Shown here in pieces: positions 1,838 through 52,278 of a DNA stretch of 64,000 nucleotides; positions within the stretch are counted from its first letter, which is position 1; each line of letters begins with the position of its first letter. The notes under the pieces are model-generated. The model ran no database searches, was not told where the DNA came from, and saw only the letters and a program-made list of their open reading frames with translations. The stretch comes from an uncultured virus (IMG/VR IMGVR_UViG_2061766007_000307). Taxonomy: Duplodnaviria > Heunggongvirae > Uroviricota > Caudoviricetes. Both the position numbers and the translations under genes were made by a program. The stretch is from the IMG/VR virus record IMGVR_UViG_2061766007_000307; one strand, 5' to 3'.

Positions 1838-2005
1838 GTGAACTGCCCACGAACCAAAGATTCAAGGGCTTCGGATTTCAACGCTGACGGCCTACGAATA
1901 GGTCTTACGTCTGCTCCCTCCGTATAATCGACCGTTCCAGCCGATATTATATCACAAGCCAAGATTAGTGCAATTCATCCCAAAACTGACGATTTTTGGG
2001 TTCCA
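1838..2005 (-). mobile_element. IS605-type MITE: left-end hairpin plus family-1 omegaRNA/right end
   Basis: 1838-1946 matches the tnpB 3' ends; 1960-2002 matches the left-end hairpin at 50918-50965 (GGATGAATTGCACTAA). Confidence 0.8.
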
Positions 2006-2179
2006 GCACTTTCTATAAAAAAAGATTTCCTACTACCTGCTATACCTGCGTCGCCACCAGCACAAGTGCTTATTCCCCTATTGGTGCAGCCACCCTCAGC
2101 AGATAAAGCTGAAACAGACACCTCTGTATCTATTCGCTTTATCGGGTATGGTTCTCTCCATGTTTTAGGAGAGCAATTG

Positions 2180-10106: not shown

Positions 10107-10307
10107 TTAGATGTTCTTAATTATTAAATATACAAAGGGAACTATATACCTCGAACAATGAGGATTTGCTATATTGGTGTTTCATTGAATGACCAATACA
10201 TCGTCCAGCCAACATTAATCATGTTTCCCTGCGGGATATGAATTGTACGAGGTACAAGATTCGAATATAATCACAAACGATCATACATTTATATAATCAC
10301 AAAAGCC

Positions 10308-11321: not shown

Positions 11322-12547
11322 TTATTTACAAGATTTACTATATTGACGTTTCATCGGGTGTCCAATGACATTGCCCTCACCGTCCTTAATCCCACTTCCC
11401 GACGGGATTTTATTTTCGATTGCATCCAGGGCTTGCGGATGCAGACCAAACTGCAATATATTCTTTGCAGCGTTCACGTCCCTATCATGGTGTTCGCCAC
11501 AAACAGGACATGTCCACTCTCTTACATTGAGGTTTTTGACATCCTTGTTCTGATAGCCGCACTTGTGGCATATCTGGCTAGATGGATCAAAGCGACCTAT
11601 AAACACAACGTTCTTGCCATACCATTCGCTCTTGTATGTAAGCTGCCTTACAAACTCTCCCCAAGAAACAGACTGTATAGCTCTCGCAAGATGATGGTTC
11701 TTCAACATACTGTCAACATTAAGGTCTTCCAGACATATTGTGTCGAATCTCTTCACAATATGTCTGTGGATAATTTGTGAAGATAATCCGACCTTTGGTT
11801 GGCTATCTTTCTGTGTTGCCTTGCAACCTTTAGCCTCATTTCTTCATGACGCTTTGACGTCTTTTCAGTCCTTGCGAACTTCTGCTGAAGCTTTTTCAGT
11901 TTCCTTTGGCCACGTTCAAAGTACTTCGGATTACTATATTTCGTACCGTCAGACAATGTAGCAAAGTCCTTTATTCCCAGGTCGATTCCAACAGCAGTTT
12001 CCTCTTGTATCTTGGCTTTCGATACATTCGGCTTGCCGTCGTCGACTACGATGGAACACCAGTAATCTCCACATTTGTCTCTTGATACAGTCAACGTGCC
12101 AATCTTGCAAGTTGAAAGGTCAAACTCTTGGTTGTGACACAGTTTCATCCACCCTATCTTTGGTATCTTCACCTTGTTCTTTTCGAAGTCGAAATGAACA
12201 CTATTGATGAACTTGCACACGTCCTTTGAGTGCTTCTTTGACTTAAACTTAGGGAATCCTTTCTTTGACTTGAAGAACTGCGTGTATGCATTGTCGAGAC
12301 AGCGCAATGACTGCTGTAACGCTTCATTTGTACAATCATTGAGCCATTTATACTCTTCAGTATGTTTAAGCAATGTCAGTTCTTTTGCGAGTTGCAGGTA
12401 CGTTACGTTTTTCTTTGTTTCTTTGTATGTCTCAACTTTTCGGTCAAGTCCCCAATTGTATATAAAACGAGCACAGCCGAAGAATTGAGACAGCATGATC
12501 TGCTGCTTCACTGTCGGTTTTATTTTGTATTTGTACGCTCGTTTCAT
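11322..12547 (-). pseudogene. tnpB: TnpB family 2, frameshifted by a 2-nt insertion near 11758
   Basis: MKRAYKY...GIDLG...LHKLSTD in one frame and [11 protein letters not shown]...CPVC...DRDVNAA in the next; GAC-AT-ATT-GTG junction; 3' end differs from family 1 (ATGAAACGTCAA). Confidence 0.85.
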
Positions 12548-12558
12548 AATAGATGATT

Positions 12559-12803
12559 GTGAACTACTCATGAACTAAAGATTCATGTGCTTCAGATTTC
12601 AACGGGATGTTTGCGTTGCGTACAGACTAGCTTTTCAGTTGGTCTAGACTCCGTCTTATTAGTCCATCCTTCCGTATAATCGATCGTTCCAGTCGATGTT
12701 GTTTTATCAACACTGTAAAGATACAATGATGATTTTACATTTACAAGAAATTTTGGACTTTTTGTGTGATTCATCACAGAAACTGAAGATTTCAAGGTTT
12801 TTC
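12559..12803 (-). mobile_element. Non-autonomous cassette: left-end hairpin, TATCTTTAC promoter-like motif, omegaRNA, right end
   Basis: Homologous to 12810, 37235 and 38722; right end lies 11 nt upstream of the family-2 tnpB ATG. Confidence 0.85.
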
Positions 12804-12809
12804 ATAATT

Positions 12810-13036
12810 GTGAACTACTCATGAACTAAAGATTCATGAGCTTCGGATTTCAACGAGATGTTTGCGTTGCGTACAGACCAGCTTTTCAGTTGGTTTAGAC
12901 TCCGTCNNNNNNNNNNNNNNNNNNNNNNNNNNNNNNNNNNNNCTGTAAAAATACAATGATGATTTTATATTTACACGAAATTTTGAACTTTTTGTACGAT
13001 TCATCCCCGAAACTGAAGATTTCTGGGTTTTCTCGT
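12810..13036 (-). mobile_element. Second tandem non-autonomous omegaRNA cassette (internal gap)
   Basis: Same layout; TCAT precedes ACGAGAAAACCC left end. Confidence 0.82.
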
Positions 13037-13126
13037 ATGATTCATATAAATCGTGTGTTATTCTGAAAAATCAAGAAAACTTGATTTTTATTGACTTAGG
13101 GACAACAAGTATATAGTTCCCTAACC

Positions 13127-17029: not shown

Positions 17030-17389
17030 TCAATCTGACTTCAGGCATCTGCAAGCATCTGGAGCATATAGTACTTTCAGATCCCTTTCGCGGGCCACAG
17101 CGAGCTCGCATCTGCATCCAGGACTATTCAGATAGCCTGCACACATGTATATATAATCACACCTTAAAAGCATTTCTATATCCTGACCCATGTACCAAGC
17201 CCAGTCATGATCAGCTTTTTCAGTGCGTCCGTTACAATCAAACTTGTCGATGTCTACTGGAGAGACTATTTCAATGTTTCCATCGAACATATCCATCAAA
17301 TGCTTTACTGCAGCATCATGCCTGAGCACTACAGTATCTTCGAAACCTCCTATAGGCAGACTTATATATACCTTTTTCATATTACACAT
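17030..17389 (-). CDS. DUF4406-like (nucleoside deoxyribosyltransferase-fold) protein
   Basis: KVYISLPI, DIEMLLRCDYIY, SPGCRCE. Confidence 0.8.
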   Translation of the reverse strand: MCNMKKVYISLPIGGFEDTVVLRHDAAVKHLMDMFDGNIEIVSPVDIDKFDCNGRTEKADHDWAWYMGQDIEMLLRCDYIYMCAGYLNSPGCRCELAVARERDLKVLYAPDACRCLKSD

Positions 17390-27097: not shown

Positions 27098-27233
27098 TAA
27101 CTCGTGATTATATTAGCCTTTTAGGTAGTATTTGTGGCGATTGTGAGAAATGTAGTCATTCACATTATTTAATTTTAGGAATTATTTGCAAATTTACAAA
27201 AAGATTTGTAATTTTACAGAAAGATTATAAGAA

Positions 27234-28427
27234 ATGGTAAAAATATACAAAACATATAAATACATGATGTGCCCGAATAAGGAGCAGGAAAGTGTTCTTG
27301 CGAGATATTTCGGGTCAGTCCGCTTTGTGTATAACCATTTCCTTGCTGAACGCAAAAGACAGTATAGTGAGAGCGGTAAGAGTGACAACTACCGCACACA
27401 AGCAAAAGCTTTGACCTTGTTGAAAAAGAAAGAAGATTTCGCTTGGCTGAAGGAAATCAACTCCCAGACACTACAGTTCTCTCTTCGCTGTTTGGAAACC
27501 GCATATACTAACTTTTTTAGCGGTAGAACGAAGTTTCCGAGATTCAAGATTAAAAAGAATGGAGGTAGTTTCACTGTTCCTCAGAACTGCTCCATCAAAG
27601 ATGGGAAAATCTACATACCAAAGTTCAAGCAAGGCATCAAAATCAAGGAGCACAGAACATTCCAAGGGAATGTCAGGAATATGACGATCTCCATAACGCC
27701 AAGCGGGAAATACTATGTTTCTATATTATCCGAAGTCGAACATAAGCCTTTGAGGAAAACCAACAAGAAGGTAGGGATAGACTTAGGTATCAAAGATTTC
27801 ATAGTAACTAGCGATGGTATGAGGTATTCAAGCAACAAGTTTGTCAAGCATTATGCCAAGAAACTTACAAAGGCTCAAAAGCGTTTGTCCAAAAAGTACA
27901 AAGGAAGTGGAGAGTGGCATAGGATGCGATTGAAGGTTGCGAGAATACAAGAGAAGATACACAACTGCCGTATGGACAAGTTGCATAAGATTTCCGCCGA
28001 TTTGGTAAGGAATTATGATGTGATTTGCTGCGAGGACTTGAATGTGAAAGGAATGCAGAGAAACCACAAACTCGCTCAAAGCATAGCTGATGCGAGCTGG
28101 GGTATGTTCTTGAATTTGCTTTCGTACAAATGTGAGAGGGACGATAAGCAGCTTGTTAAAGTGAGCAGGTTCTATCCATCCTCAAAGACTTGTAGCCACT
28201 GTGGTTATGTCAAGAAAGATTTGTCTCTGAAAGACAGATATTGGAAATGTCCTCATTGCGGGAATATGATCGATAGAGATTTGAATGCATCGATCAACAT
28301 CCTGAACGAAGGTATCAGAAATATATCGGCTGGAACGGTCGATTATACGGAGGGAGCAGACGTAAGACCTACTCGTGGGCAGTCAGCGTTGAAATCCGAA
28401 GCCTGCGAATCTTTAGTTCGTGGGTAG
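27234..28427 (+). CDS. tnpB: TnpB family 1, intact RuvC triad
   Basis: HTH N-terminus, GIDLG, CCEDL, zinc finger, DRDLNA; right end TTCAC at 28428-28432. Confidence 0.95.
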   Translation: MVKIYKTYKYMMCPNKEQESVLARYFGSVRFVYNHFLAERKRQYSESGKSDNYRTQAKALTLLKKKEDFAWLKEINSQTLQFSLRCLETAYTNFFSGRTKFPRFKIKKNGGSFTVPQNCSIKDGKIYIPKFKQGIKIKEHRTFQGNVRNMTISITPSGKYYVSILSEVEHKPLRKTNKKVGIDLGIKDFIVTSDGMRYSSNKFVKHYAKKLTKAQKRLSKKYKGSGEWHRMRLKVARIQEKIHNCRMDKLHKISADLVRNYDVICCEDLNVKGMQRNHKLAQSIADASWGMFLNLLSYKCERDDKQLVKVSRFYPSSKTCSHCGYVKKDLSLKDRYWKCPHCGNMIDRDLNASINILNEGIRNISAGTVDYTEGADVRPTRGQSALKSEACESLVRG

Positions 28428-28772
28428 TTCACTTGTGAATTGGAAGAAATCACAGATAGCCCATATGATATAATCTATTTCATCTATATCTTCTTTGACA
28501 TGATGCTGTGAGTAGCTATTCATGCTTACTATTCTCTTCAGAGTCTGCACTCTATGATATATGCTTGAAAATGATACAGTATGCGCTTTTCGAGGGTTTT
28601 CTTTTGCATATTCGTCTATACGTGACATGCAATAGTTCAATACATCTTGCTTTGTATAGCACATATATCCGTCACATAATACGCAATGTGCGATATCAAT
28701 CCACTTATGACTGATAAATTTTCTGCGGCGATACCATCCTTTACAATATGACATGAAGTTATCAAATATCAT
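28413..28772 (-). CDS. Hypothetical protein whose last codons come from the IS right end
   Basis: GTGATTATA at 28801; ends SELPTN* inside the right-end hairpin. Confidence 0.65.
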   Translation of the reverse strand: MIFDNFMSYCKGWYRRRKFISHKWIDIAHCVLCDGYMCYTKQDVLNYCMSRIDEYAKENPRKAHTVSFSSIYHRVQTLKRIVSMNSYSQHHVKEDIDEIDYIIWAICDFFQFTSELPTN

Positions 28773-31310: not shown

Positions 31311-34100
31311 TTACTTCATGCTTGTCACAAATGTTATTCCGATAGTCAAGTCTAATGAATTGATATATGATCCTACATTAGCATAGACTTCAATAGGAGA
31401 CTCCACAGTTTTTGTCAGAGACATCAATTCAGGAGACGCTGTGCTTCCTGAAATGCTGACAGGTGCTATCACAACAGTAATAGGAACATCTATATATGCA
31501 TCATCTGAGAATGCTAGAGTAGATCCTTCATTGAATGAAATGCCATTAGCATCTGATGCCATGACAGTTGCAAAGTTCTCCAAGCTGCTGCTCTGTTTGC
31601 GGTATCGTGAATTATTGCTCTCGCTTATTTCAGTATCCATAGTTCCGTGATGTCTCAAAAGACCCACTTTCAGATATCTGTTATTGAACATCATAGAAGG
31701 GTCCAATGTAGTGTTCTCTGGATAATTTCCATCAATGAAATCAGAGAAATTATACAGCGAATATCCATTAGGAGCTTTAGATATCTTGGTGAATCTCACA
31801 TATTTAGACTTAGCAGATATGCGTAGAGTGTATCTCATTGTAGCTACATAGTCCACATCAGACTCGTCACTCTTACTGACAGTCTTGCCATTCTGTGATT
31901 TCAATAGCTCCATATATGCTGGAGTAGTCACTATATTGTTCGTTCCTTCGCTGATCTCGGTTTCTGTTCCGTCTGAAGCTATCAGAGTGAATTTGAAGTT
32001 ATTGATGTCTACTGCGTTGAAAGCATCGTTCAATTGCTGAGCTACTGTAGCTATATCTTTAAGCTTCTCATATAGCGATATAGGCTGCTGTTCTTCAGTC
32101 ACCCACCCAGATGCAATCTCTTCAGCACTGTGTCCGAAATACTTCTCACCTGCAGTGAATGATTTGGCCGTGTGTCTGAACATTCCGTTAGTAGCAAGAG
32201 TATTGTTGACAGATGCTTTGACCTGGTCTGCCTGATTTATATTCTGGAGGGCCTTTGTAGATGATCTTTCCAATGTAGAATCCCAAGGAACATAGATATC
32301 ATCGCTCCATGTAGACTTTTTAGGGTTCTCTGGATATCCCGCTTCAAATACATATCTGAACTGGATGATAGTATTATATCTTGTCTCAATAGGGATGACA
32401 AATGATGTCTGTTCTATTGTATTAGGATTCCATCTGAATTTGCGTGTAGTGTCATCCAGCTGGCGCGATCTGCAATAGAATGGAGTGTATCTCCATGCAT
32501 TGAATGGCACTTTAGTTCCATTCAGATCATAATACTCCTTCTTCTGTATATCAGAATCGTTTCCGATGAATCTATATCTCAATTCGACACCTATACATTC
32601 AAATGGTATATCTAACGCTGCAAGCTTGACAATACCATGTATCTCATATTTAGATTCAAGTGCATTAGTGCTCAGTTCATCTGATATATTGAATACTAAT
32701 GTATTGAACTCATTCTGTGCATCTTCTAGAGACTGTGTCACTCTCGCAAGTTCATTCTGGGCTGCGGATCCTGCTGATGTGCCTGATGAGATGATGTTGC
32801 GCAATACATTGATTCTATCTCTGTATGCCTCAATTGTATTCTCTACAGATTTCTTCTGAGATTCTAGCTGCGTTATCTTTGTATAGCTTGATGATGATAT
32901 ATCTCTTGATACATCTACAATAGTGAATGATACATTATCTGTATTTGTGCTGTCTGGTGCTATTATGTCTTCGACAATATTAGCATCGTTCCAGTCATCT
33001 CGTGTGAAGTATGTATCCTTTCTGTATTTGTCCAAGTATTTTCCTAGATCTAGGATTCCGCTGCAGATAGAGTCTGGCGTGGTAGCATTGATATGGATCT
33101 GTTCACCTTCCTCATGTCTATATCCTGTTTTTGTAATCAGTGTAGGGTATATCCAATATTGGTATCTGTTTGATAATGAGAACTTTATAACTCCAGTCTT
33201 TCTGTCACCATCGATATATGGGAATAACTGTGAGCCTACTGTGATAGGCTGGTATCCATCGACATAGCTGACTTTGATATATGATCTGGTCTTATCAATG
33301 ATCTCTACTTTCACACGGGTGTCATGATATCCTTGGCTATTGTATAATGTAAGGACATCTCCTTGGCTGATAGGATAGACAGACCCTTCCTTGCCTCTGA
33401 ATGCTATATCTGAGATATAATAGATCTTCTTATGTTCTACATTCTCATCGACATCGACACTTTCCGTGTCTACAACTCTCAATACATACACACCTCCATA
33501 TGCAGACATATCTGCAGGCTCTATGTCTCTGATGACCTTGAAATGCGAATATTCTTCAATAGTATCATTCTCTTTCCATTGATCAAAAAGCTGTTTTAAC
33601 TGAGAGAAAGGCTTATTCAGTGTTTCTGTATTAGGAATGTTTTCTTTGCCGTGATAAGCTATTATATTGAGCTCTACTCGGTCTTCTTTGTTGTACAATG
33701 TGACTGGAATATCTACTGTCACATCCTTCTCCATCATATTGATGATAGAATCGGATTTGCTGTACACGAAATCACCCTTGACCACTTCTGTAGATCTAGG
33801 GATATCCAGCCTGTTGATGTACATTTTTCTATAAGAACCATCTGACATCCTCACAATACTGTCTCCAGTAGCACCCATCAAGGTCTCTAGGGTCGAATCT
33901 ATTCTATCTACCCTAGATTTCATATAGCCCAAAGAAGGAAGTTCAATATCTCGAGCCTCTCCGCTCGCTAGATATATCTGTGTCTTGACAGATGGCTGGT
34001 TAGAGAATACAGCTTCATGAATTGCAGAATACATATTCATGTTGTTCGCTGTAATTTTAACTATTTGGTCAAGGACTCCTGATAAACTATTTTGAATCAT
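31311..34100 (-). CDS. Large putative virion protein with central coiled coil
   Basis: 929 aa, directly downstream of tail sheath. Confidence 0.7.
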   Translation of the reverse strand: MIQNSLSGVLDQIVKITANNMNMYSAIHEAVFSNQPSVKTQIYLASGEARDIELPSLGYMKSRVDRIDSTLETLMGATGDSIVRMSDGSYRKMYINRLDIPRSTEVVKGDFVYSKSDSIINMMEKDVTVDIPVTLYNKEDRVELNIIAYHGKENIPNTETLNKPFSQLKQLFDQWKENDTIEEYSHFKVIRDIEPADMSAYGGVYVLRVVDTESVDVDENVEHKKIYYISDIAFRGKEGSVYPISQGDVLTLYNSQGYHDTRVKVEIIDKTRSYIKVSYVDGYQPITVGSQLFPYIDGDRKTGVIKFSLSNRYQYWIYPTLITKTGYRHEEGEQIHINATTPDSICSGILDLGKYLDKYRKDTYFTRDDWNDANIVEDIIAPDSTNTDNVSFTIVDVSRDISSSSYTKITQLESQKKSVENTIEAYRDRINVLRNIISSGTSAGSAAQNELARVTQSLEDAQNEFNTLVFNISDELSTNALESKYEIHGIVKLAALDIPFECIGVELRYRFIGNDSDIQKKEYYDLNGTKVPFNAWRYTPFYCRSRQLDDTTRKFRWNPNTIEQTSFVIPIETRYNTIIQFRYVFEAGYPENPKKSTWSDDIYVPWDSTLERSSTKALQNINQADQVKASVNNTLATNGMFRHTAKSFTAGEKYFGHSAEEIASGWVTEEQQPISLYEKLKDIATVAQQLNDAFNAVDINNFKFTLIASDGTETEISEGTNNIVTTPAYMELLKSQNGKTVSKSDESDVDYVATMRYTLRISAKSKYVRFTKISKAPNGYSLYNFSDFIDGNYPENTTLDPSMMFNNRYLKVGLLRHHGTMDTEISESNNSRYRKQSSSLENFATVMASDANGISFNEGSTLAFSDDAYIDVPITVVIAPVSISGSTASPELMSLTKTVESPIEVYANVGSYINSLDLTIGITFVTSMK

Positions 34101-34125
34101 AATGCATCAATTATACACATATAAA

Positions 34126-34156
34126 AATAGGCAGTGAGCAGAAAACCCACTGCCTA
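34126..34156 (-). terminator. Terminator after tail sheath
   Basis: ATAGGCAGTG...CACTGCCTAT with T-tract on the minus strand. Confidence 0.7.
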
Positions 34157-34176
34157 TCTTATTTAACCATGTTAGA

Positions 34177-36831
34177 TTACTCTGCGTTAGAAGTAAGCGC
34201 GCCTGTAGGAAGGATATAGCAGCGCTGAACAAGCTTCTCCATAGGACGGGCACCTTCGATCTTGATGTCAAGGACACCATAGAAATTGTCGATAATCTCT
34301 GCAGTATTATTAGTACTGTTCATGATTACCTCAAAGGCAGTCAATCCACCTGAACGCTGTGGAGTAGCTGTCACACTCTTCAAGAATGTGTTACATTTTG
34401 AAACTATCTCTGTTCTGATAGATTCGGTGTTCTCCTGGAATACATATGGTCTGATGATATTCTCGATCTCATCCATGATGTAAACCACGAAATCTCTGAA
34501 GCTCAATGCAGATAGTGCAGAAACAGGCTTCTGTTTAGCAGTCTTGTTACCATATACACATATTGTGTTCTGTTCATCTCCAGCATCAATGATAGCATTG
34601 ATACCCATAGCTTCAAGCCATTCTCTATCTTTTGTAGACAATGGAACTTCTGGGTTGTATCCTGGAAGAGCACCTCTCAATGTACCTGCAGCAACAGACC
34701 AAGGATTGTCTTTCTGGATGAACAGATTAGAAACTACACCTGCGGGAGGAAGAAGCTTAGCACCCTTGCGGTTCCATGGGTAGAAGTATCCTACATGTGT
34801 TGCGCCATCCTTGATATTAGGCACTGTGAAGATATCAGATGTTGCTATTGCTTTGTAATTCAAGCTGCCGAACTCATCTGTGAAATCATCTACCTTAGTC
34901 AATGCCAATGCAGAAGGTGCGTTAAGAAGGCCTGTTGCGTGCTGTGCCATACATACCTTAGCAAAGATTGCCTTAGAGCTAGGTTCGATGCCGTATCCCC
35001 AGCAGTCTACCAAGTATCTGAATGATACTACCATACGGTCTGTGATAGCCTTCCACATATTAGTATGTCCATAAACAGCTTCAGGAGCAGGTTCAGGTTC
35101 CCACTTGCCTGTAGTCTTGTTGCGAAGAGTCACAGCATATTTCAAAGGAGTATCTTCGGCATCTCTCAATGAATGAAGGATAGCCTTATAGTTGTTAGGG
35201 TTAGATGCACATGGCTCTACACCGACCTCAATCTTATCCATATGTGATGTCTCAAGGATCTTCTTCTCTGCAGGAGTGCCCTTCTCACAATAAGGAACTG
35301 TGAATCCTATGATATTAGTTGTAGATGCAAGATTTCTCAAGAATGTATCTATTGAAATATCTGTGCCTGCAGCATTTGTCAAGCCTGGAACAGATGCTCC
35401 TGTGTATGTATATACACCTGTGATACCATTACAGTCAAACAATGCGTCATCCATTCTGATGAACTGCAATGAAGATGCATGCTCGCCAAGACCCCAAGAT
35501 TTCATCAATGAGATCATGTCATTAGACAATGTCTTGACATCGCTGAAGATCACTATTGTAAACATGAAGTCAGCCAAAGTGTAATCAGATGCACTGAATC
35601 CTTTCTCATCTAGATATTCCTGCAGCTCGAATGGAATGTCATTTCCGTAGTAGTCTGAAATAGGAATATTGTATGCAAGCATTGATGATGTATCGCTTGG
35701 AGTCTTGTATACATATGCTCTGATATCATTACCAGAAGCGTTTGCAATATATACGAAAGGCTGTCCATCATATGTCTCATCATCAGCAGGGTTCAAATGA
35801 ACTGATGTATCGTATGGGTTAGACAAGATGCGGTTACCCAAAACGTCATTAGTTCCCAATAGCTTCACAATATCAATTGTGATGATATCTACCTCAGATT
35901 CGCTTGGTTCAGGCTCATCAGCAATTGTCAATGTAACGTTATCGCCAGAGCGAGTAATTGCTATATTAAGCTGGCGGTCATTAGAATATACATTGTCTAT
36001 ATCTGTAACGTAAACATGAGGTGTTTCTGATAGATACTCAGCCTTAGGATAGATCAACACATCTACAGGCTCTACATTTTCGTCCAAGATACTCGCTCCT
36101 GTCGGATCATCTGGGTTAGGGATATATCTGCAAAGATGTGCGCGACCGATAGGCTTATAAGTAGCATTGGCTATGTACCATAGGTTGTCGCTGTCTTTGT
36201 TGATGTCTTCTGAGAATATAATGACATTCAGATAATCATATTCTGCAAGCGCTGCAGCAGCTGCTGTATTATCTGTTCCATTGTTCTCAGTACCATTCTC
36301 TGTGTCATCACCTGCAAGATTACTCCATGTAACAACAGATTCGTCTGTAAAGTCACATAGCAATTTCTTTTCGCCTAACGTGATGATGTTCTGATCATTT
36401 ATAGAATCGCGCAAGCGGTCAGGCCATGGCTCATACCACAAAGCCGTAGAGAAAGCTCCTTTGATCGGTGATGCGAAAGGCTGTGCAAACTTTGTACCTA
36501 TTGCATATCCATCAATAACATTCTCTGCGTCACCATATGAATGAAGGTTAAGCGCAATAATCGGACCAGCTTTCAACATTTCAATAGCTGTACGATGGAA
36601 GAAACATCCGTTAGCCTCTAGTTTAGGGTCGATGTTGCCAAATATAGATACAAACTGATCTGAATCGTTGATCTTAAATGGCTTGTTGAATGGGCCTTTG
36701 TAAGAAAAGCCTGGAACAATTCGGCCTCTTGAATATGTGCTCTCGTATGTTGGCTGCATAGTGCTCAAATCGAACTCGCGGCGGTAAACACCGGCAGACT
36801 TGATACTAACTAATTCTTGAGATATTGCCAT
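34177..36831 (-). CDS. Contractile tail sheath protein (gp18-like)
   Basis: SAGVYRREFD, GPFNKP, FVSIFG, PWSVAAGTLRG, GINAI, YGNKT, VFQENT, STNNTAEIID. Confidence 0.92.
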   Translation of the reverse strand: MAISQELVSIKSAGVYRREFDLSTMQPTYESTYSRGRIVPGFSYKGPFNKPFKINDSDQFVSIFGNIDPKLEANGCFFHRTAIEMLKAGPIIALNLHSYGDAENVIDGYAIGTKFAQPFASPIKGAFSTALWYEPWPDRLRDSINDQNIITLGEKKLLCDFTDESVVTWSNLAGDDTENGTENNGTDNTAAAAALAEYDYLNVIIFSEDINKDSDNLWYIANATYKPIGRAHLCRYIPNPDDPTGASILDENVEPVDVLIYPKAEYLSETPHVYVTDIDNVYSNDRQLNIAITRSGDNVTLTIADEPEPSESEVDIITIDIVKLLGTNDVLGNRILSNPYDTSVHLNPADDETYDGQPFVYIANASGNDIRAYVYKTPSDTSSMLAYNIPISDYYGNDIPFELQEYLDEKGFSASDYTLADFMFTIVIFSDVKTLSNDMISLMKSWGLGEHASSLQFIRMDDALFDCNGITGVYTYTGASVPGLTNAAGTDISIDTFLRNLASTTNIIGFTVPYCEKGTPAEKKILETSHMDKIEVGVEPCASNPNNYKAILHSLRDAEDTPLKYAVTLRNKTTGKWEPEPAPEAVYGHTNMWKAITDRMVVSFRYLVDCWGYGIEPSSKAIFAKVCMAQHATGLLNAPSALALTKVDDFTDEFGSLNYKAIATSDIFTVPNIKDGATHVGYFYPWNRKGAKLLPPAGVVSNLFIQKDNPWSVAAGTLRGALPGYNPEVPLSTKDREWLEAMGINAIIDAGDEQNTICVYGNKTAKQKPVSALSALSFRDFVVYIMDEIENIIRPYVFQENTESIRTEIVSKCNTFLKSVTATPQRSGGLTAFEVIMNSTNNTAEIIDNFYGVLDIKIEGARPMEKLVQRCYILPTGALTSNAE

Positions 36832-36874
36832 AATTTGTTATATAGTCTATTATATTCTTATTTACTGTCTTACC

Positions 36875-37071
36875 TGAAACAACAAAAACAATGTGCAATG
36901 TCTATCTGACACTGCACATTGCGCCCACCCCAAATAATGGTCATTATTTATGTTATGACCTTGACGCTTCATTGGATGGTCAAAGGGAATCATCCTCCAC
37001 GCCCATGAACACGTTTATTAACATGCACGTAACCATCGAATATATAATCACAAAGATATGGCAATATGCTC
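36875..37071 (-). ncRNA. Stand-alone family-2 omegaRNA-like unit 1 (promoter, scaffold, variable segment, terminator)
   Basis: GTGATTATA, then GGGCGTGGAGGATG...CATCCAATGAAGCGTCAA aligning with the tnpB-2 3' end, then CAATGTGCAGTGTC/GACATTGCACATTG and a T-tract. Confidence 0.7.
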
Positions 37072-37234
37072 TGAAACAATAAAAAACAATGTACAATGTC
37101 TATATGACACTGCACATTGCGCCCTCCAAACAATGGTCATTATCTATGACCTTGACGCTTCACAGGATGGCCAAAGGGAAGCATCCTCCACGCCCATGAA
37201 CACGCTTGTTAACATGCACGTAACCATCAATATT
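37072..37234 (-). ncRNA. Family-2 omegaRNA-like unit 2 (own promoter replaced by the family-1 cassette)
   Basis: Direct repeat of unit 1. Confidence 0.7.
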
Positions 37235-37480
37235 GTGAACTACCCATGAACTAAAGATTCATAGGCTTCGGATTTCAACGGGATGTTTGTGTTGCGTACA
37301 GACCAACTTTTCAATTGGTTTAGACTCCGTCTTATTAGTCCCTCCCTCCGTATAATCGACTGTCCCGGCCGATGTTGTTTTATCAACACTGTAAAGATAC
37401 AATAATGATTTTACGTTTACACGAAATTTTAGACTTTTGTGTGATTCATCTAAGAAATTAAAGATTTCTGGGTTTCTCGT
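37235..37480 (-). mobile_element. Family-1 omegaRNA cassette with left end
   Basis: Homologous to 12810 and 38722. Confidence 0.85.
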
Positions 37481-37481
37481 A

Positions 37482-37672
37482 TGAAACAACAAAAACAATG
37501 TGCAATGTTTAATAAACACTGCACATTGCGCCCACCAAATAATGGTCAATTATTTATGACCTTGACGCTTCACTGGATGGCAAAAGGGATCATCCTCCAC
37601 GCCCATGAACACGCTTATTAACATGCACGTAATCATCAAATATATAATCACACAGATATGGCAATATGCTCT
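37482..37672 (-). ncRNA. Family-2 omegaRNA-like unit 3
   Basis: Direct repeat of unit 1 with GTGATTATA at 37643-37651. Confidence 0.7.
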
Positions 37673-37679
37673 GATTGGA

Positions 37680-38720
37680 AATAAAATATGCAATACCCTC
37701 GCGAGCACTGCATATATGAGAATTATCTGTTTAATTTTCTAACGTAAAGATACTATATTATAATGTATGTTCCAACAGAAACTTTGAAAATCTTTTCAAT
37801 ATATACAAAAAAGATAGCAGTACCCTCACGAGCATTGCTATCAGATGAATTTAATATTATTAAGTATGTACCGTGAACTGCCCACGAACCAAAGATTCGC
37901 GTGCTTCGGATTTCAACGGGATATTTGCGTTGCGTACAGACCAACTGAAAAGTTAGTTTAGACTCCGTCTTATTAGTCCCTCCCTCCGTATAATCGACCG
38001 TCCCAGCCGATGTTGGTTATCAACACTGTAAAGATACAACAATATTCTATATGATCAAACAAAAGCCTTGTTTATTGTATGTAAGTAACAAAAAGAAATG
38101 CAGTGCTCTCACGAGCACTGCATTCAAATGATTAATTTTTTATGGATTAGTTTTGTGTGCTGTAAAGATACAATAATGTTCTATATGATCAAACAAAAAC
38201 ATTGTTTATTGTATGTAAGCAACAAAAAGAAATGCAGTACTCTCACGAGCGCTGCATTCAAAGGATTAAATTTTATTGATTATGATACTGTAAAGATACT
38301 ATAATGTTCTGAATATCCAAACAGAAATATAGAAATTTTTCATATAATAAATATACAAAAGAAAAGCAGCACTCTCACGAGCACTGCTAGTCGAAAGGAT
38401 TATATTGTATTATGATATTGTAAAGATACTATGAAGTTCTGAATATCCAAACAGAAATAGAGAAATTTTTCATGTGATATATAAAAATGCAGTACTCTCA
38501 CGAGCACTGCATTCCTGGAAACATAAAAAAAATATAAAAAATAAATGGATGATCTTATTTTAGCTTAAATGCATAAAATTTATCCGCAGCTAAAGAACAA
38601 CACGTCCTATTGCCTGTATGTATGCATTTATATACATATAATCACGCAGAAATCTCTTTTTGATGCAAATATAAACAAAAAAAATAACATGCATTATTCT
38701 CGCGAGCATTGCATGTTATA
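37680..38720 (-). ncRNA. Array of seven conserved-hairpin sRNA-like units
   Basis: TGCAGTRCYCTCRCGAGCACTGCA-type hairpins at 37686, 37813, 38097, 38231, 38365, 38486, 38684, each with a T-tract 3' on the minus strand; TATCTTTAC motif about 30-35 nt upstream of four of them. Confidence 0.65.
37873..38037 (-). ncRNA. Family-1 omegaRNA without left end, using an sRNA-array promoter and terminator
   Basis: Upstream sequence 38026-38095 matches array unit 38160-38230 rather than the left-end hairpin. Confidence 0.7.
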
Positions 38721-38721
38721 A

Positions 38722-38969
38722 GTGAACTACTCATGAACTAAAGATTCATGAGCTTCGGATTTCAACGGGATGTTTGCGTTGCGTACAGACCGACTGAAAA
38801 GTTGGTTTAGACTCCGTCTTATTAGTCCCTCCCTCCGTATAATCGACCGTTCCAGCCGATGTTGTTTATCAACACTGTAAATATACAATAATGATTTTAT
38901 ATTTACAAGAAATTTTGAACTTTTTTGTGCGATTCATCCCAGAAACTGAAGATTTCTGGGTTTTCTCGT
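38722..38969 (-). mobile_element. Family-1 omegaRNA cassette with left end
   Basis: Complete ungapped copy; TCAT precedes the left end. Confidence 0.88.
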
Positions 38970-39044
38970 ATGATTTTATAAAGGTGCTGGATGCAATAAG
39001 AGCATGCAACACCTTTACCTTAAAGAGACGTATATATGCATTGA

Positions 39045-40391
39045 TTACATATCACCGAAACCACCGTTTGATGGTGAAGATGCTGCACCGAATGGATTGC
39101 TAGGAGCTGCTCCCATGTTACCTACAAATGGGTTGCTCTGCGGTGCTGCTCCCATATTGCCTGCAAATGGGTTGCTCTGTGGTGCTGCTCCATGCATGTT
39201 TACACCAAAAGGATTGCTTGCTGGAGCTGCCGGCTGGGCTGCAAACGGATTGGCTACCTGTATCTGAGGTGCTACACCCTGAGCTATTGCAGAAGCAGCT
39301 GTTCCTGCTGATGTTGTCATCATAGCCATTGCTTCTTGATAGCGTCTAGCAAATGTTTCTTGAACCTCTTTAACCTTTTCAGGAGTGAACATATTTGGGT
39401 TCGATGTCAGCAATGCATTGTACTTTTCTTTGATACCCTTGAATGCAGCATAGAATTGAGCCTTCCATGCTTCGTAAGCTTTAATATCAGTACCTACATA
39501 AACGAATGAGCCGCCAGATGTCTTGACTAACTTGTCGTGTCCTAGATCATATGATTGAAGTGATACATTGTACTGGATACGGCGGCTGCGAGATGCATCA
39601 TAAGACAAATCTACAACGATGGCCTTAGTATTAGAAGGCTGGACTAATTCTGCCATAGCACCGTAAAGTCCCTGCTCTTCAAATGCCTTGCTCAATGTAT
39701 ATGAAACACGGAACAAAACGAAGCGACCCACAGTATCTGGATTGTTCTTATTGCTAAGAATCTGGCCTAAGAAATACTTATTGTCAATAGTGCGTACGAA
39801 TTTCTTTCTTAATTCAGTGTCACCAGATAAAGCATTAAGCATCTTATCCAAAATGTCATCATGCTTATTAGCTACTCTTGGAGATATCTCGCAGAAAATA
39901 GGCTCTTTCTCGTCACACGGATCACATATCATTGTCATGATAGAGTTGAATACTGAAACAGACTTATTCTTATCGATCATGATAGGATAAGGTCTGATCA
40001 CGACTGTGTTGCTCTCCTTGTAATTCAAAGCGAAAATACACTCCTCTGTGATAGGTTCGTAACCACCTGAATCACCGTTGATTTGAGATACAACATCAAC
40101 TTCGTTTGATCCATCCATACCAGACAACCAATCATCCTCGCCACCTACGTTGTCAGGGATGTCGAACTGTGTCCCTTCATTGTTGTAACTTTCAGTTTCA
40201 ATTGAATGATTTGCATAAGGATTATCATGAACTGTTGTGTCAATGACTGATGCTCCTGGTACACTTTCTTCGTCCGCTGTACTGCTGACATTAAACGGAT
40301 TTGAAGCTGTTTCTGATGCTTCGCGAGCTGCCTTTTCTGTGGCTAGTCTCTTTTTACGCTGATACTGCGTTTCTTTAATTTCTTCTGCCAT
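39045..40391 (-). CDS. gp32-like single-stranded DNA-binding protein (putative)
   Basis: YFLGQILSNKNNPDTVGRFVLFRV resembles the T4 gp32 core; acidic N-terminal extension and NPF-repeat tail. Confidence 0.55.
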   Translation of the reverse strand: MAEEIKETQYQRKKRLATEKAAREASETASNPFNVSSTADEESVPGASVIDTTVHDNPYANHSIETESYNNEGTQFDIPDNVGGEDDWLSGMDGSNEVDVVSQINGDSGGYEPITEECIFALNYKESNTVVIRPYPIMIDKNKSVSVFNSIMTMICDPCDEKEPIFCEISPRVANKHDDILDKMLNALSGDTELRKKFVRTIDNKYFLGQILSNKNNPDTVGRFVLFRVSYTLSKAFEEQGLYGAMAELVQPSNTKAIVVDLSYDASRSRRIQYNVSLQSYDLGHDKLVKTSGGSFVYVGTDIKAYEAWKAQFYAAFKGIKEKYNALLTSNPNMFTPEKVKEVQETFARRYQEAMAMMTTSAGTAASAIAQGVAPQIQVANPFAAQPAAPASNPFGVNMHGAAPQSNPFAGNMGAAPQSNPFVGNMGAAPSNPFGAASSPSNGGFGDM

Positions 40392-40402
40392 AATTGTTAC
40401 AA

Positions 40403-40459
40403 TTAAAATACATTTGTTCAGTTAAAATACATTTGTTCAGTTAAAATACTTTTGTTTAT
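40403..40459. repeat. Three 19-bp AT-rich tandem repeats in the SSB leader
   Basis: TTAAAATACATTTGTTCAG twice plus one degenerate copy. Confidence 0.88.
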
Positions 40460-40681
40460 TAAGACGTTATTAAAAGTATTGAAGTTGTTAAAACTTGTTC
40501 TACTTTTTACATACTTCCTGCAATCTCTGTAAAAGGATTGTGGTGTCGTATAGGACATAACGAGTGCCCTCTATTGACTATCCTACTTGCATAGGAATCG
40601 TCAACTGCTTTTCGTATGATGCTCAAGGCTCATTCTGTTCTTACATCTATATAATCATTGCATCCGACGAGATATCTCCCA

Positions 40682-41044
40682 TTACTTGAAAAAATATCTG
40701 GTCAATACAGTATTTTTCACTATGATGTCCACTACGCAAACAGGTTCTTCATTAACAACATATGCCTTGCACTGTACTCTGATATCAACACCTTCAGGTA
40801 CAGTGATCCATTCGTTGATAGCGCCTTGGACTATTCTTTCGATCTCGTCACACTTTACTGTAGTCTCAAATATATAATGTTCCAGATCTACCCCAAATGT
40901 AGGATGCTCTATAAACTCACCTGGCTTGGTGAACAGCAGTATCTCTATCTGCTGTACCATAATGTCCCATTCAGATGTGAGCTCTGTGAGATCATATCTG
41001 TATCTATGATGAGTATCCGGAAATGCGAATATATCGAACGCCAT
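40682..41044 (-). CDS. gp25-like baseplate wedge protein
   Basis: QIEILLFTKPGE...PTFGVDLEHYIFE. Confidence 0.85.
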   Translation of the reverse strand: MAFDIFAFPDTHHRYRYDLTELTSEWDIMVQQIEILLFTKPGEFIEHPTFGVDLEHYIFETTVKCDEIERIVQGAINEWITVPEGVDIRVQCKAYVVNEEPVCVVDIIVKNTVLTRYFFK

Positions 41045-50885: not shown

Positions 50886-50914
50886 GAATCTTCGAATATT
50901 TATACTATAAAGTA

Positions 50915-52278
50915 CAAGAAAACCTCGAAATCTTTAGTTTCGTGGATGAATTGCACTAACCTTGGTTTACTATATAATCACTTATAGTGTCAGGATTAGC
51001 TTCTTCTATCGAACAAACTAAGCTTAAAAAGAGTTGTAAATTTGCAAAAATATATGTAATTTTACAGAAAAATTATAAAATGGTAAAGATATACAGAACA
51101 TACAAGTATAGGATGTATCCGAATAAGGAGCAAGAGCAAGTTCTTGCGAGATATTTCGGCTCTGTCCGTTTTGTGTATAACCATTTCCTTGCTGAACGCA
51201 AAAGGCAATACGAAGAGAACGGTAAGAGCGATAACTATCTTGCACAGGCAAAAACTTTGACCTTGCTGAAAAAGAAAGAAGATTTCGCATGGCTAAAAGA
51301 GATCAACTCCCAAACCTTGCAGTTTTCTCTCCGCTGTTTAGAAACCGCCTATACTAACTTTTTCAGCGGTAGAACGAAGTTTCCGAGATTCAAGACGAAG
51401 AAGCACGGAGGTAGCTTCACTGTCCTGCAAAACTGCTCTATCAAAGATGGAAAAATCTTTATTCCGAAGTTCAAACAAGGCATCAAAATCAAAGAGCACA
51501 GAGCATTCCAAGGGAATGTTAGAAATATGACGATTTCGGTCACACCAAGCGGGAAATGCTATGTTTCCATATTATCCGAAGTTGAACACGAACCTTCAAG
51601 GAAAACCAACAAGAAGGTCGGGATAGATTTAGGCATCAAGGATTTCATAGTAGCTAGCGATGGTGTGAGGTATTCAAGCAACACGTTTGTCAAGCATTAT
51701 GCTAAAAAGCTTACAAAAGCTCAAAAGTGCTTATCAAAGAAGCATAATGGTAGCGGTGAATGGCATAGGATGCGATTGAAGGTTGCGAAGATACATGAGA
51801 AGATACATAACTGCCGTATGGACAAATTGCATAAGATTTCTGCCGATTTGGTAAGGAATTATGATGTGATTTGTTGCGAGGATTTGAATGTGAAAGCTAT
51901 GCAGAGAAACCACAAGCTCGCACAAAGTATAGCTGATGCTAGCTGGGGTGCATTCTTGAATCTACTTTCGTACAAATGTGCGAGAGAAGATAAGCAGCTT
52001 GTCAAGATAGACAGGTTCTATCCTTCTTCAAAGACTTGCAGTCACTGCGGTTATGTTAAGAAAGACTTGTCTCTAAAAGACAGAACCTGGAAATGCCCTC
52101 ATTGCAGACAGATGATTGATCGCGATCTGAATGCCGCGATCAATATCCTAAATGAAGGCATTAGAAATATATCGGCTGGAACGGTCGATTATACGGAGGG
52201 AGCAGATGTAAGACCTACTTGTAGGCTGTCAGCGTTGAAATCCGAAGCCCGTGGATCTTTAGTTCATGAGTAGTTCAC
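50915..52278 (+). mobile_element. Non-autonomous IS200/IS605-type element (left end, tnpB, right end; no tnpA)
   Basis: Left hairpin CCTCGAAATCTTTAGTTTCGTGG and right hairpin ending GTAGTTCAC; left boundary approximate. Confidence 0.78.
51080..52273 (+). CDS. tnpB: TnpB family 1, intact RuvC triad
   Basis: Start MVKIYRTY by homology with 27234; same motifs. Confidence 0.95.
   Translation: MVKIYRTYKYRMYPNKEQEQVLARYFGSVRFVYNHFLAERKRQYEENGKSDNYLAQAKTLTLLKKKEDFAWLKEINSQTLQFSLRCLETAYTNFFSGRTKFPRFKTKKHGGSFTVLQNCSIKDGKIFIPKFKQGIKIKEHRAFQGNVRNMTISVTPSGKCYVSILSEVEHEPSRKTNKKVGIDLGIKDFIVASDGVRYSSNTFVKHYAKKLTKAQKCLSKKHNGSGEWHRMRLKVAKIHEKIHNCRMDKLHKISADLVRNYDVICCEDLNVKAMQRNHKLAQSIADASWGAFLNLLSYKCAREDKQLVKIDRFYPSSKTCSHCGYVKKDLSLKDRTWKCPHCRQMIDRDLNAAINILNEGIRNISAGTVDYTEGADVRPTCRLSALKSEARGSLVHE

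What the first reader, a model, noticed from the sequence alone, without database searches (positions are those of the whole stretch)
36875..38969. 2.1-kb non-coding RNA island holding stand-alone guide-RNA-like genes for two TnpB families
Seen: between tail sheath and SSB there is no credible ORF. Instead there are about a dozen co-oriented minus-strand units: three family-2 scaffold-like repeats, three family-1 omegaRNA cassettes and seven hairpin units (two of which terminate omegaRNAs). Most have their own promoter-like motif and terminator. Known: TnpB omegaRNA normally overlaps the tnpB 3' end and IS right end, with the flanking DNA as guide. Inference: the phage may have separated guides from nuclease and collected them at one locus, a CRISPR-like multi-guide repertoire served in trans by the tnpB genes at 27234 and 51080.
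Basis: partly seen in the sequence, partly recalled or inferred. Interest (0 to 1): 0.9.

Follow-up and report, generated by a model that had tools for sequence, protein, structure and literature searches.

The report
Gene-less guide-RNA transposons in phage
A 2.2-kb gene-free stretch of a cattle-gut phage holds three protein-less copies of a TnpB jumping element that kept only a promoter and the guide-RNA scaffold, set among small promoter-terminator units of unknown use; guide-only elements of this kind are already described, so the finding is real but mostly ordinary.

Summary
The repeats are real and were counted correctly: 3 omegaRNA units (B), 3 copies of a ~160-nt terminated unit (A) and 7 hairpin terminators (C). 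All are sense on the minus strand of an ORF-free 2.2-kb spacer upstream of the tail sheath gene.

The B units share the right end and scaffold of the two intact tnpB genes, end at the same GTTCAC, and show covariation. They also carry the IS200/IS605 left-end hairpin, and B3 carries the TTTAT target motif. They are therefore gene-less PATE/MITE-type transposons.

- They are not gathered at one locus. A covariance model finds 13 omegaRNA-like copies across the 64-kb window, and 10 lack a tnpB.
- Each island guide is simply the local flank. None has a TTTAT-flanked match elsewhere in the window or in IMG/VR.
- Contigs from other studies show one allele without B2 and a further insertion exactly 3' of a TTTAT.
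- The two tnpB genes are one family (90% identical).
- A resembles no tnpB 3' end and has no relatives found.

Best reading: promoter-driven orphan omegaRNAs are served in trans by TnpB and aimed at their own empty sites (homing or retention). This is a new member of a known kind. A, C and the unique unit U remain unexplained.

The parts
36875..37074 (-). A1: ~160-nt RNA-like unit with a promoter-like TATCTTTG (37051-37058) and its own terminator (36922-36888)
   Evidence: Repeat families D4, D6, D7 and D9. 88-90% identical to A2 and A3. Terminator scan. Model R1 scores 173.7 bits. MFE z = -4.2.
37073..37234 (-). A2: same unit without its promoter. It starts directly after the B1 right end, so its 5' part is the B1 'guide'. 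Terminator at 37120-37086.
37235..37484 (-). B1: gene-less TnpB element. omegaRNA scaffold 37235-37377, promoter motif 37390-37400, left-end hairpin about 37445-37474. The first bases of the left end and the TTTAT motif are missing.
   Evidence: 89% identical to B3. Ends at GTTCAC. Model R2 scores 106.8 bits. Left-end alignment.
37482..37674 (-). A3: full A unit with promoter-like motif and terminator (37529-37495)
   Evidence: Model R1 scores 179.3 bits.
37675..37790 (-). C1: promoter-like motif, ~30-nt leader and hairpin terminator (37715-37686)
   Evidence: (D2, D3).
37802..37872 (-). B2 'guide' region (37872-37843) and the C2 hairpin terminator (37842-37802). The guide region is homologous to a C-unit leader.
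   Evidence: 22 of 31 positions identical to the C4 leader; 9 of 500 shuffles reach that score.
37873..38059 (-). B2: omegaRNA scaffold (37873-38015) driven by a C-type promoter (38028-38059). No left end.
   Evidence: Model R2 scores 102.4 bits. A contig of run X6 joins 37871 directly to 38419 and so lacks this unit.
38085..38514 (-). C3-C6: four tandem units of promoter, leader and hairpin terminator. Hairpins at 38085-38125, 38219-38259, 38351-38391 and 38474-38514. Promoters end at 38162, 38290 and 38420.
   Evidence: (D2, D3, D5).
38520..38675 (-). U: single-copy unit between C7 and C6, with TATATTTG and TTTAT at its 5' side. In run X5 a B-type right end is inserted exactly 3' of that TTTAT (38675-38671).
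   Evidence: no second copy in the window; z = -2.6.
38676..38721 (-). C7 hairpin terminator. It begins 5 nt after the B3 right end, so its 5' arm is the B3 'guide'.
38722..38982 (-). B3: complete gene-less element. TTTAT motif (38982-38978), left end with hairpin, promoter motif (38876-38886), omegaRNA scaffold (38722-38864).
   Evidence: Model R2 scores 111.2 bits.
27234..28432 (+). Intact tnpB (397 aa) with its omegaRNA and right end finishing at 28432. No left-end hairpin was found upstream.
   Evidence: Pfam OrfB_IS605, Cas12f1-like_TNB and HTH_OrfB_IS605. PDB ISDra2 TnpB chain 8h1j, E 1.7e-83..
50899..52278 (+). Full element: TTTAT (50899-50903), left-end hairpin, tnpB 51080-52273, right end at 52278.
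12559..13042 (-). B4 and B5: two B-type gene-less elements in tandem outside the island. B5 has TTTAT. The left end of B4 abuts the right end of B5.
1838..2024 (-). B8: gene-less element with the short (tnpB-type) central stem, a left-end hairpin and TTTAT.
   Evidence: Model R2 scores 123.3 bits.

Best explanation
The spacer upstream of the tail sheath gene of a cattle- and pig-gut myovirus, probably infecting Bacteroidales, is a tolerated non-coding landing zone.

Into an array of small promoter-leader-terminator units (C x7, A x3, U) went three gene-less derivatives of the phage's own ISDra2-like IS200/IS605 element. These are PATE/MITE-type elements. The tnpB reading frame is deleted and a promoter is fused to the omegaRNA scaffold.

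Most likely working:
1. Each B unit is transcribed from its own TAnnTTTAC-type promoter.
2. The scaffold is bound in trans by TnpB made from the genes at 27234 and 51080.
3. The 3' flank serves as a fixed guide.
4. The complex cuts TTTAT-flanked copies of the same locus that lack the insertion, in sister genomes or in co-infecting relatives.
5. Recombinational repair restores or spreads the insertion (restorative or non-restorative transposon homing).

Guides are set by where the element landed. They are not acquired.

Shown here: homology to the tnpB right end, covariation in the scaffold, the left-end hairpin, the TTTAT motif, dispersed and partly decayed copies, and insertion polymorphism between samples.

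Inferred: transcription, loading on TnpB, cleavage and homing.

A, C and U are probably short host-polymerase transcripts or plain promoter/terminator modules. Their role is unknown.
For: **Homology to the tnpB right end**
- The B units match the last ~110 nt of both tnpB genes. All 10 unmasked copies end at the same GTTCAC and diverge after it.
- In a 14-sequence alignment, 10 of 24 predicted pairs keep pairing through changes on both sides. This includes the pairs that close the B-specific 30-nt stem insertion.

**Left end and target motif**
- The left-end hairpin of B1, B3, B4 and B5 matches that of the full element at 50899.
- TTTAT lies 12-17 nt 5' of the hairpin foot in 9 of 11 left ends examined. 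It is present in the element at 51080, B3, B5, B8, L031 and L004-L007, and absent in B1 and B4. Its background frequency is 0.0022 per position.

**The nuclease**
- TnpB is ISDra2-like (8h1j, E 1.7e-83). It keeps the motifs GIDLG, CEDLN and DRDLNA at the positions of the matching motifs in the best PDB hit.

**Dispersal**
- Model R2 finds 13 copies in the window. Two sit beside an intact tnpB, one inside a truncated tnpB, and 10 are orphan. Several are partial.

**Guides**
- The island guides are local flanks with no second match.
- The B2 guide region is homologous to a C leader.

**Polymorphism between samples**
- A 373-nt contig of run X6 joins 37871 to 38419 with nothing between. This allele reads promoter ...TTTACA|GTACATAC... 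and lacks the B2 scaffold.
- A 224-nt contig of run X5 joins a B-type right end to 38669/38670. That is exactly 3' of a TTTAT that is unoccupied in the window.
- Loose ends at 37234/37235 and 38722 show further flanks.

**Literature**
- PATEs that encode omegaRNAs needing TnpB in trans are described in PMC10055086 (passages read).
- TnpA-independent non-restorative homing, including between co-infecting phages, is set out in PMC13565253 (passages read).
Against: - No Y1 transposase was found among 52 window ORFs scanned against Pfam. Transposition would therefore need a host enzyme, or the spread is by homing only.
- B1 lacks the first left-end bases and the TTTAT motif. B2 has no left end at all. 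Neither is a simple canonical insertion. My account of B2 is inference: insertion after the TTTAC of a C promoter, then loss of the left end by recombination between the two promoter copies.
- The B scaffolds are well kept (102-111 bits against 123-129 for the tnpB-linked ones), and pairs are maintained. This could equally mean selection for a use by the phage.
- Pieces of the island are held at about 90-99% identity in contigs from three other studies. Most of the arrangement is therefore stable.
- The B3 guide begins 5 nt before a 13-bp terminator stem, which may make it a poor guide.
- Nothing here shows transcription.
- A, C and U, which make up more than half of the island, are not explained by this model.
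Confidence: 0.7

Rival explanations
1. The phage has uncoupled guides from the nuclease and keeps a CRISPR-like repertoire of stand-alone guides at this locus, aimed at foreign DNA (host or competing phages) and served in trans by TnpB.
For: - The orphan omegaRNAs have their own promoter motif, and B2 and B3 have a terminator close behind.
- Scaffolds are conserved, with compensatory changes.
- Orphans outnumber intact tnpB genes 10 to 2 in the window.
- B2 has lost the transposon left end and sits in a promoter-terminator cassette.
Against: - Only 3 of the 13 copies are in the island.
- Spacing is irregular (638 and 849 nt) and the space between is filled by other repeats.
- The guides are the adjacent local sequence. 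No second site was found in the window.
- No TTTAT-flanked hit was found in IMG/VR: exact 18-mers gave 0, 0 and 3 hits, and all 3 lack TTTAT and stop at 18 nt.
- No adaptation genes were found among 52 ORFs scanned.
- An empty allele of B2 and an alternative TTTAT insertion exist in other samples.
Confidence: 0.07
2. The island is mainly a cluster of functional phage small-RNA genes, or a transcription barrier between the upstream gene and the late structural operon. A, C and U are the selected parts. The omegaRNA elements are passengers that landed in the only long non-coding stretch.
For: - There are ten strong minus-strand terminators (terminator-like sites: 9 found against 1.1 expected). 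All are co-oriented with the flanking genes.
- A promoter-like motif recurs (8 found against 0.27 expected).
- The A units fold well below shuffles (z -3.2 to -4.3).
- A and C occur nowhere else in the window.
- In run X5, two substitutions in the C2 stem (37833, 37835) improve pairing: an A.C mismatch becomes G-C and a G.U pair becomes A-U. I read this by hand.
Against: - No relatives of A were found in IMG/VR, JGI metagenome contigs (15 hits of 19-26 nt only), 401 Bacteroidales genomes or Rfam.
- Only 1 compensatory pair is seen among the three A copies.
- The low folding energy comes mostly from the terminator.
- The C-type hairpin is also an ordinary gene terminator in other gut phage contigs.
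- The related phage L001 has only a 290-bp gap upstream of its sheath gene.
- C copy number differs between samples.
- No complementarity above shuffles was found to the omegaRNA, the tnpB 5' region, the sheath 5' region or the left end.
Confidence: 0.15
3. The island is inert debris. Tandem duplication and decay of transposon fragments and promoter/terminator pieces have left nothing that is used by the phage or by the elements.
For: - B1 and B2 have damaged or missing left ends.
- Other copies in the window are fragments.
- Copies differ by 8-12%.
- Unit number varies between samples.
Against: - The full scaffold is kept in B1-B4, with compensatory changes.
- The promoter motif is intact in all B and C units.
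- A fresh TTTAT insertion in another sample shows that the family is still moving.
Confidence: 0.08

Closest known systems
PATEs (palindrome-associated transposable elements): gene-less IS200/IS605 elements that encode omegaRNAs, as noted for Geobacillus stearothermophilus (Meers et al., preprint PMC10055086; passages read) and for IStron ends (10.1101/2023.11.20.567912; legend passage read)
   Same: - No reading frame.
- Left and right ends with subterminal hairpins like those of the tnpB-bearing element.
- Target motif 5' of the left end.
- An omegaRNA that must be used by a TnpB encoded elsewhere.
- Many copies per genome.
   Different: - These sit in a phage genome at high density: 13 omegaRNA-like copies in 64 kb.
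- The scaffold carries a 30-nt longer central stem than the tnpB-linked version.
- A promoter motif is fused directly to the scaffold.
- Two of the three island copies have lost part or all of the left end.
ISDra2 TnpB with its omegaRNA (PDB 8h1j, 8exa)
   Same: - The TnpB sequence is related (E 1.7e-83) and the RuvC-type motifs are present.
- The omegaRNA overlaps the 3' end of tnpB and ends at the transposon right end.
- A 5-nt T-rich target motif: TTTAT here. TTGAT for ISDra2 is recalled, not tested.
   Different: In the island the scaffold stands without the gene, and the TAM differs by one base.
Transposon homing by TnpB, restorative and non-restorative (review PMC13565253; passages and Table 1 read)
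   Same: - The guide equals the flank of the insertion.
- The target is the insertion-free allele.
- Co-infecting phages are named as possible targets.
- The non-restorative form needs no TnpA.
   Different: Nothing was tested here. That gene-less copies take part in homing is inferred.
CRISPR arrays and phage-borne mini-arrays (recalled, no paper read)
   Same: Several guide-bearing RNAs served by one nuclease.
   Different: - No regular repeat-spacer structure.
- No acquired spacers.
- No adaptation genes.
- The guide lies outside the mobile unit and is fixed by position.

Membership tests
Gene-less IS200/IS605 element (PATE/MITE) carrying an omegaRNA | No protein-coding gene inside the element | tested here: met
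   No ORF over 96 aa in code 11, and none is conserved between copies. 0 of 8 island ORFs have a family hit below E 0.01.
Gene-less IS200/IS605 element (PATE/MITE) carrying an omegaRNA | Right end of the same kind as a tnpB-bearing element, ending at the same base | tested here: met
   All 10 unmasked copies, including both tnpB-linked ones, end in GTTCAC and diverge after it.
Gene-less IS200/IS605 element (PATE/MITE) carrying an omegaRNA | Left end with a subterminal hairpin like that of the full element | tested here: inconclusive
   Met for B3 (and for B5 and B8 outside the island). In B1 the hairpin is present but the first bases are missing. Absent in B2.
Gene-less IS200/IS605 element (PATE/MITE) carrying an omegaRNA | Conserved target motif (TAM) directly 5' of the left end | tested here: inconclusive
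   TTTAT is present in 9 of 11 left ends examined, including B3. It is absent at B1 and B4, and B2 has no left end.
Gene-less IS200/IS605 element (PATE/MITE) carrying an omegaRNA | Copies at unrelated sites, with presence/absence differences between genomes | tested here: met
   13 model hits at 11 separate places in the window. A B2-free allele and an extra TTTAT insertion appear in contigs from other studies.
Gene-less IS200/IS605 element (PATE/MITE) carrying an omegaRNA | Mobilised by a Y1 TnpA transposase | not testable with these tools
   No transposase family other than TnpB (OrfB_IS605) was found among 52 ORFs scanned. No whole genome is held.
TnpB omegaRNA | Scaffold homologous to the 3' end of tnpB | tested here: met
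   Model R2 scores B1-B4 at 95.6-111.2 bits and the tnpB-linked copies at 123-129 bits.
TnpB omegaRNA | Conserved secondary structure supported by covariation | tested here: met
   10 of 24 pairs show compensatory changes in 14 sequences. The 3' hairpin is also the DNA hairpin of the right end, so part of this signal may serve TnpA rather than the RNA.
TnpB omegaRNA | Transcribed, bound by TnpB and guiding cleavage next to a TAM | not testable with these tools
   Only motifs are available. No usable RNA run was found.
CRISPR-like acquired guide array | Regular repeats separated by short variable spacers that match foreign DNA | tested here: not met
   B spacing is 638 and 849 nt and is filled by other repeat families. 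The guides are local flanks without a TTTAT-flanked match in the window or in IMG/VR.
omegaRNA of a second TnpB family (claimed for A) | Similarity to the 3' end of a tnpB gene, followed by a variable guide | tested here: not met
   A matches only itself in the window. The bases after the proposed TCAA end are conserved in all three copies and form a hairpin. The two intact tnpB genes are one family.
Any Rfam family | Score at or near the gathering threshold | tested here: not met
   Only tRNAs reach gathering score in the window. In the island the single hit is a chance miRNA match at E 0.55.

The most novel reading that the evidence does not exclude
The phage has turned one TnpB transposon into a distributed, promoter-driven guide set. 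Ten orphan omegaRNAs per 64 kb outnumber the two nuclease genes five to one. Each is aimed at the insertion-free allele of its own locus. TnpB then works as a multi-site, RNA-guided marker-exclusion weapon against co-infecting relatives, an RNA-guided counterpart of the seg and mob endonucleases of T4. The C units of the island, each with TTTAC followed by a leader, would be spare landing or target sites. B2, which has lost its left end and sits in a promoter-terminator cassette, would be a first step from a mobile guide to a fixed guide gene.
Probability: 0.22. Interest if true: 0.7.

Novelty: new member of a known kind. Interest (0 to 1): 0.35.

Why it matters
If the orphan omegaRNAs are loaded on TnpB during infection, this phage would be a natural case of one nuclease served by many separately transcribed guides. 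It would also be a convenient system to test two open questions. The first is whether gene-less elements spread between co-infecting phages by RNA-guided homing without a transposase. The second is how guide genes detach from their nuclease on the way from transposon to CRISPR-like systems. As it stands, the finding mainly adds a phage example, with a defined TTTAT motif and visible insertion polymorphism, to a class already described in bacteria and archaea.

Tried and rejected
**Searches for relatives**
- Known phages: no match to the island or to 34000-41000 in 50,697 phage records.
- Relatives of A:
  - The 19-mer found nothing in IMG/VR.
  - In JGI metagenome contigs it gave 15 loci, which match only 19-26 nt and are chance.
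  - Model R1 found only the three copies, plus a 14-bit hit at 17043-17149.
- Island DNA against 401 Bacteroidales genomes: only G001, the genome of L031, holds the right end. The other 17 genomes have 24-52-nt AT-rich matches at E 4e-5 to 1e-3, six of them on the promoter-like stretch 38657-38699. I take these as composition or promoter likeness.
- Syntenic comparison: the relatives L001-L003 (sheath 66-91% identical) lose similarity 35 bp upstream of the sheath start, and a different gene lies there. No empty-site comparison was possible.

**Coding and pairing tests**
- Coding in A:
  - The plus-strand 63-aa ORFs change frame between copies.
  - The minus-strand 18-28-aa ORF shows 4 substitutions in its first 16 codons, all amino-acid changing.
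- Pairing of A or U with the omegaRNA, the tnpB 5' region, the sheath 5' region or the left end: z between -1.2 and +2.4.

**Guides**
- The guides of B4 and B7 have 14-of-16 matches at 7902 and 8026 in the HNH endonuclease gene. These lack TTTAT and lack extended similarity, so I take them as chance.

**Expression**
- No RNA holder is listed for the stretch.
- Run X20 is only guessed to be RNA. It gave four short contigs, including one over 37215-37360. I do not use it as evidence either way.

**Other**
- No whole genome is held for the window. Copy numbers are therefore for 64 kb only.
- Four runs of N (282-291, 1045-1126, 4997-5006, 12907-12942) interrupt four of the copies outside the island, so their completeness cannot be judged.
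Full report
**Anatomy**

Window 36832-39044 lies between a tail sheath gene and a 448-aa ORF.
- The sheath gene is 34177-36831 on the minus strand (PHROG tail sheath, E 4.6e-52).
- The 448-aa ORF is 39045-40391 on the minus strand. It has no hit in Pfam, PHROGs or PDB sequences. 'SSB' is therefore unverified. Its tail has NPF repeats.

The stretch has no convincing reading frame.
- The longest ORF is 96 aa in code 11, 113 aa with TAG=Q and 149 aa in code 4.
- These ORFs run across repeats and change frame between copies.
- 0 of 8 hit a protein family below E 0.01.

Everything is organised on the minus strand. Reading 5' to 3' from 39044, the order is: B3, C7, U, C6, C5, C4, C3, B2, C2, C1, A3, B1, A2, A1, then the sheath gene.

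Signals on that strand:
- Terminator-like sites number 9 against 1.1 +/- 1.0 in shuffles, and 8 are on the minus strand.
- A sigma-70 scan shows no excess (9 against 12.5).
- GTATNTTTACA occurs 8 times in the window against 0.27 expected. It is always on the minus strand and always in a B or C unit.
- Four units carry TTTG-N19-TAnnTTTAC.
- That this resembles the Bacteroidota -33/-7 promoter is my recollection, not a test.

**The B units are TnpB guide-RNA scaffolds**

- Their last ~46 nt and an inner 32-nt block match, in the same sense, the 3' ends of both tnpB genes.
- All ten unmasked copies in the window end with GTTCAC and diverge immediately after it.
- An alignment of 14 scaffolds was built from 8 window copies, a Bacteroidales MAG contig (L031) and 5 IMG/VR phages. 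It gives three helices, and 10 of 24 pairs are kept through changes on both sides.
- The B type differs from the tnpB-linked type by a 30-nt longer central stem. Its closing pair is kept by a C-G to G-C swap.
- TnpB itself is ISDra2-like (8h1j, E 1.7e-83) with the RuvC-type motifs in place.

**The B units are also transposon derivatives**

- B1, B3, B4 and B5 carry, upstream of the promoter motif, the same hairpin as the left end of the full element at 50899-52278.
- I compared left-end flanks of window copies, L031 and four related phage elements. The only shared feature upstream is TTTAT, 12-17 nt 5' of the hairpin foot, in 9 of 11 left ends. Its background frequency is 0.0022 per position. 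I take TTTAT as the target-adjacent motif.
- B3 is complete: TTTAT, left end, promoter, scaffold.
- B1 lacks the first left-end bases and the TTTAT motif.
- B2 has no left end. Its scaffold follows a promoter of the C3/C4 type.
- The promoter of the B type has the same end motifs and spacing as the promoter in front of tnpB (TTGTAAAT ... TGTAnnTTTACAG). By eye, 22 of 34 positions are identical. This fits an internal deletion of the tnpB frame.

- The two intact tnpB genes are 90% identical and share one omegaRNA. They are one family.
- A third tnpB of another lineage (11322-12571) is frameshifted.
- A matches nothing but itself in the window.
- The bases after its supposed TCAA end are conserved and hairpin-forming in all three copies.
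- Rfam has no match for A.
- No relative of A was found in IMG/VR, JGI metagenome contigs or 401 Bacteroidales genomes.

**The guides are not collected in one place**

Model R2 finds 13 scaffold-like copies in the 64-kb window:
- 2 are beside an intact tnpB.
- 1 is inside a truncated tnpB.
- 10 are orphan, in the tRNA region, at 12.5-13.0 kb, 20.3 kb, 31.0 kb and in the island.
- Several are fragments.

Five related TnpB-bearing phage contigs total 937 kb and have 7 hits. Six are beside a full tnpB and one is orphan. The high orphan density is the unusual feature of this phage.

**Guides**

- The B1 guide is the start of A2.
- The B2 guide region is homologous from its first base to a C-unit leader: 22 of 31 positions, and 9 of 500 shuffles reach that score.
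- The B3 guide runs into the C7 terminator stem after 5 nt.
- None of the ten guides has a second site in the window at up to 1 mismatch in 16.
- Exact 18-mers of the three island guides give 0, 0 and 3 IMG/VR hits. None lies next to TTTAT and none extends past 18 nt.

**Population evidence**

- The stretch is held in cattle- and pig-gut runs of several studies.
- I laid contigs of three DNA runs from other studies. Island pieces are present with roughly 1-10% differences, against 1-4% in the flanking genes (table 8).
- A 373-nt contig of run X6 joins 37871 directly to 38419. This allele has a C-type promoter followed at once by the B2 'guide' and the C2 terminator. It lacks the B2 scaffold and C3-C5.
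- A 224-nt contig of run X5 joins a B-type right end to 38669/38670. That is exactly 3' of the TTTAT at 38675-38671, a site that is empty in the window.
- Loose ends at the right-end positions show further flanks.

These are the marks of a moving transposon family. The B2-free allele is what the B2 guide would recognise: TTTAC followed by 15 of 16 bases.

**Mechanism**

The most likely working is as follows.
1. Each B unit is transcribed from its own promoter.
2. The RNA is bound in trans by TnpB from 27234 or 51080.
3. The complex cuts the insertion-free allele of the unit's own locus next to TTTAT, in sister or co-infecting genomes.
4. Repair copies the element back.

No Y1 transposase was seen among 52 ORFs scanned. 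Transposition would therefore need a host enzyme. Homing alone would need none, as set out in PMC13565253 (passages read). All functional steps are inferred.

**The other units**

C is a 13-bp stem with a GTGA loop and a T run. A near-identical hairpin serves as an ordinary gene terminator in 15 of 22 IMG/VR loci found with a degenerate pattern. C, A and U look like very short host-polymerase transcription units. I could not assign them a role, and they remain the open part of the island.

**Comparison and novelty**

Gene-less IS200/IS605 elements that encode omegaRNAs and depend on TnpB in trans are described. The source is the Discussion of PMC10055086 (passages read). Notes from this scan on other genomes reach the same filing; these are leads, not evidence. 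The island is therefore a new member of a known kind. It has three local peculiarities:
- a phage setting with high orphan density;
- a longer scaffold stem with a fused promoter;
- one copy (B2) that has lost its mobile left end inside a promoter-terminator cassette.

**Limits**

Only 64 kb are available and no whole genome is held. Supplements of the cited papers were not opened.

Noticed in passing
window 2759-2838 (minus): ARAGORN calls a tRNA with anticodon CTA (amber suppressor, labelled tRNA-Pyl) inside a cluster of 7 tRNA genes at 89-4745. Rfam's tRNA model did not list it at gathering score. Long ORFs of the window read through in code 11, so I saw no sign of TAG recoding here.
   Followed up: partly
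window 11322-12571 (minus): A tnpB of a different lineage is split by a frameshift into ORFs of 272 aa and 144 aa. Its start lies directly after the right end of B4, so the B4 'guide' is the 5' end of this gene.
   Followed up: partly
window 37302-37319, 37940-37957, 38789-38806 and copies at 12.6 kb and 0.2 kb: The hairpin inside the B-specific stem insertion is flipped between copies. The loop reads TGAAAA in B1, B4, B5 and B6, and TTTTCA in B2 and B3. This is an inversion of the palindrome that keeps the stem.
   Followed up: no
window 7902 and 8026 (minus), inside ORF 6422-8302: The guides of B4 and B7 each have a 14-of-16 match, 124 nt apart, in the same HNH/homing-endonuclease gene. Neither has TTTAT or flanking similarity. 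This is probably chance; about 0.3 such hits are expected over ten guides by my estimate.
   Followed up: partly
window 282-291, 1045-1126, 4997-5006, 12907-12942: All four runs of N in the window fall inside omegaRNA or tnpB right-end copies.
   Followed up: no
window 27116-27233: The tnpB at 27234 has the promoter region of the family but no left-end hairpin. Similarity to the full element in L031 starts only at 27116, so this copy looks immobile.
   Followed up: partly
L062-L083 (IMG/VR), e.g. L067 2440-2530: Fifteen gut-phage contigs share a terminator almost identical to the C hairpin (GCAGYGCTC GTGA GAGYGCTGC followed by a T run). It is preceded by a second CTCGTGAGAG hairpin and lies between two ordinary genes.
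   Followed up: partly
window 8570-10841: QueC (8570-9319) and a NADAR-domain protein (10308-10841) lie next to a 626-aa HNH endonuclease with a Mom-like PHROG match. This may be a DNA-modification module.
   Followed up: no
window 52259-52278: The right end of the element at 51080 (52278) lies a few bases from the stop of the convergent large terminase gene (52259-54040). The insertion therefore sits tightly between genes.
   Followed up: no
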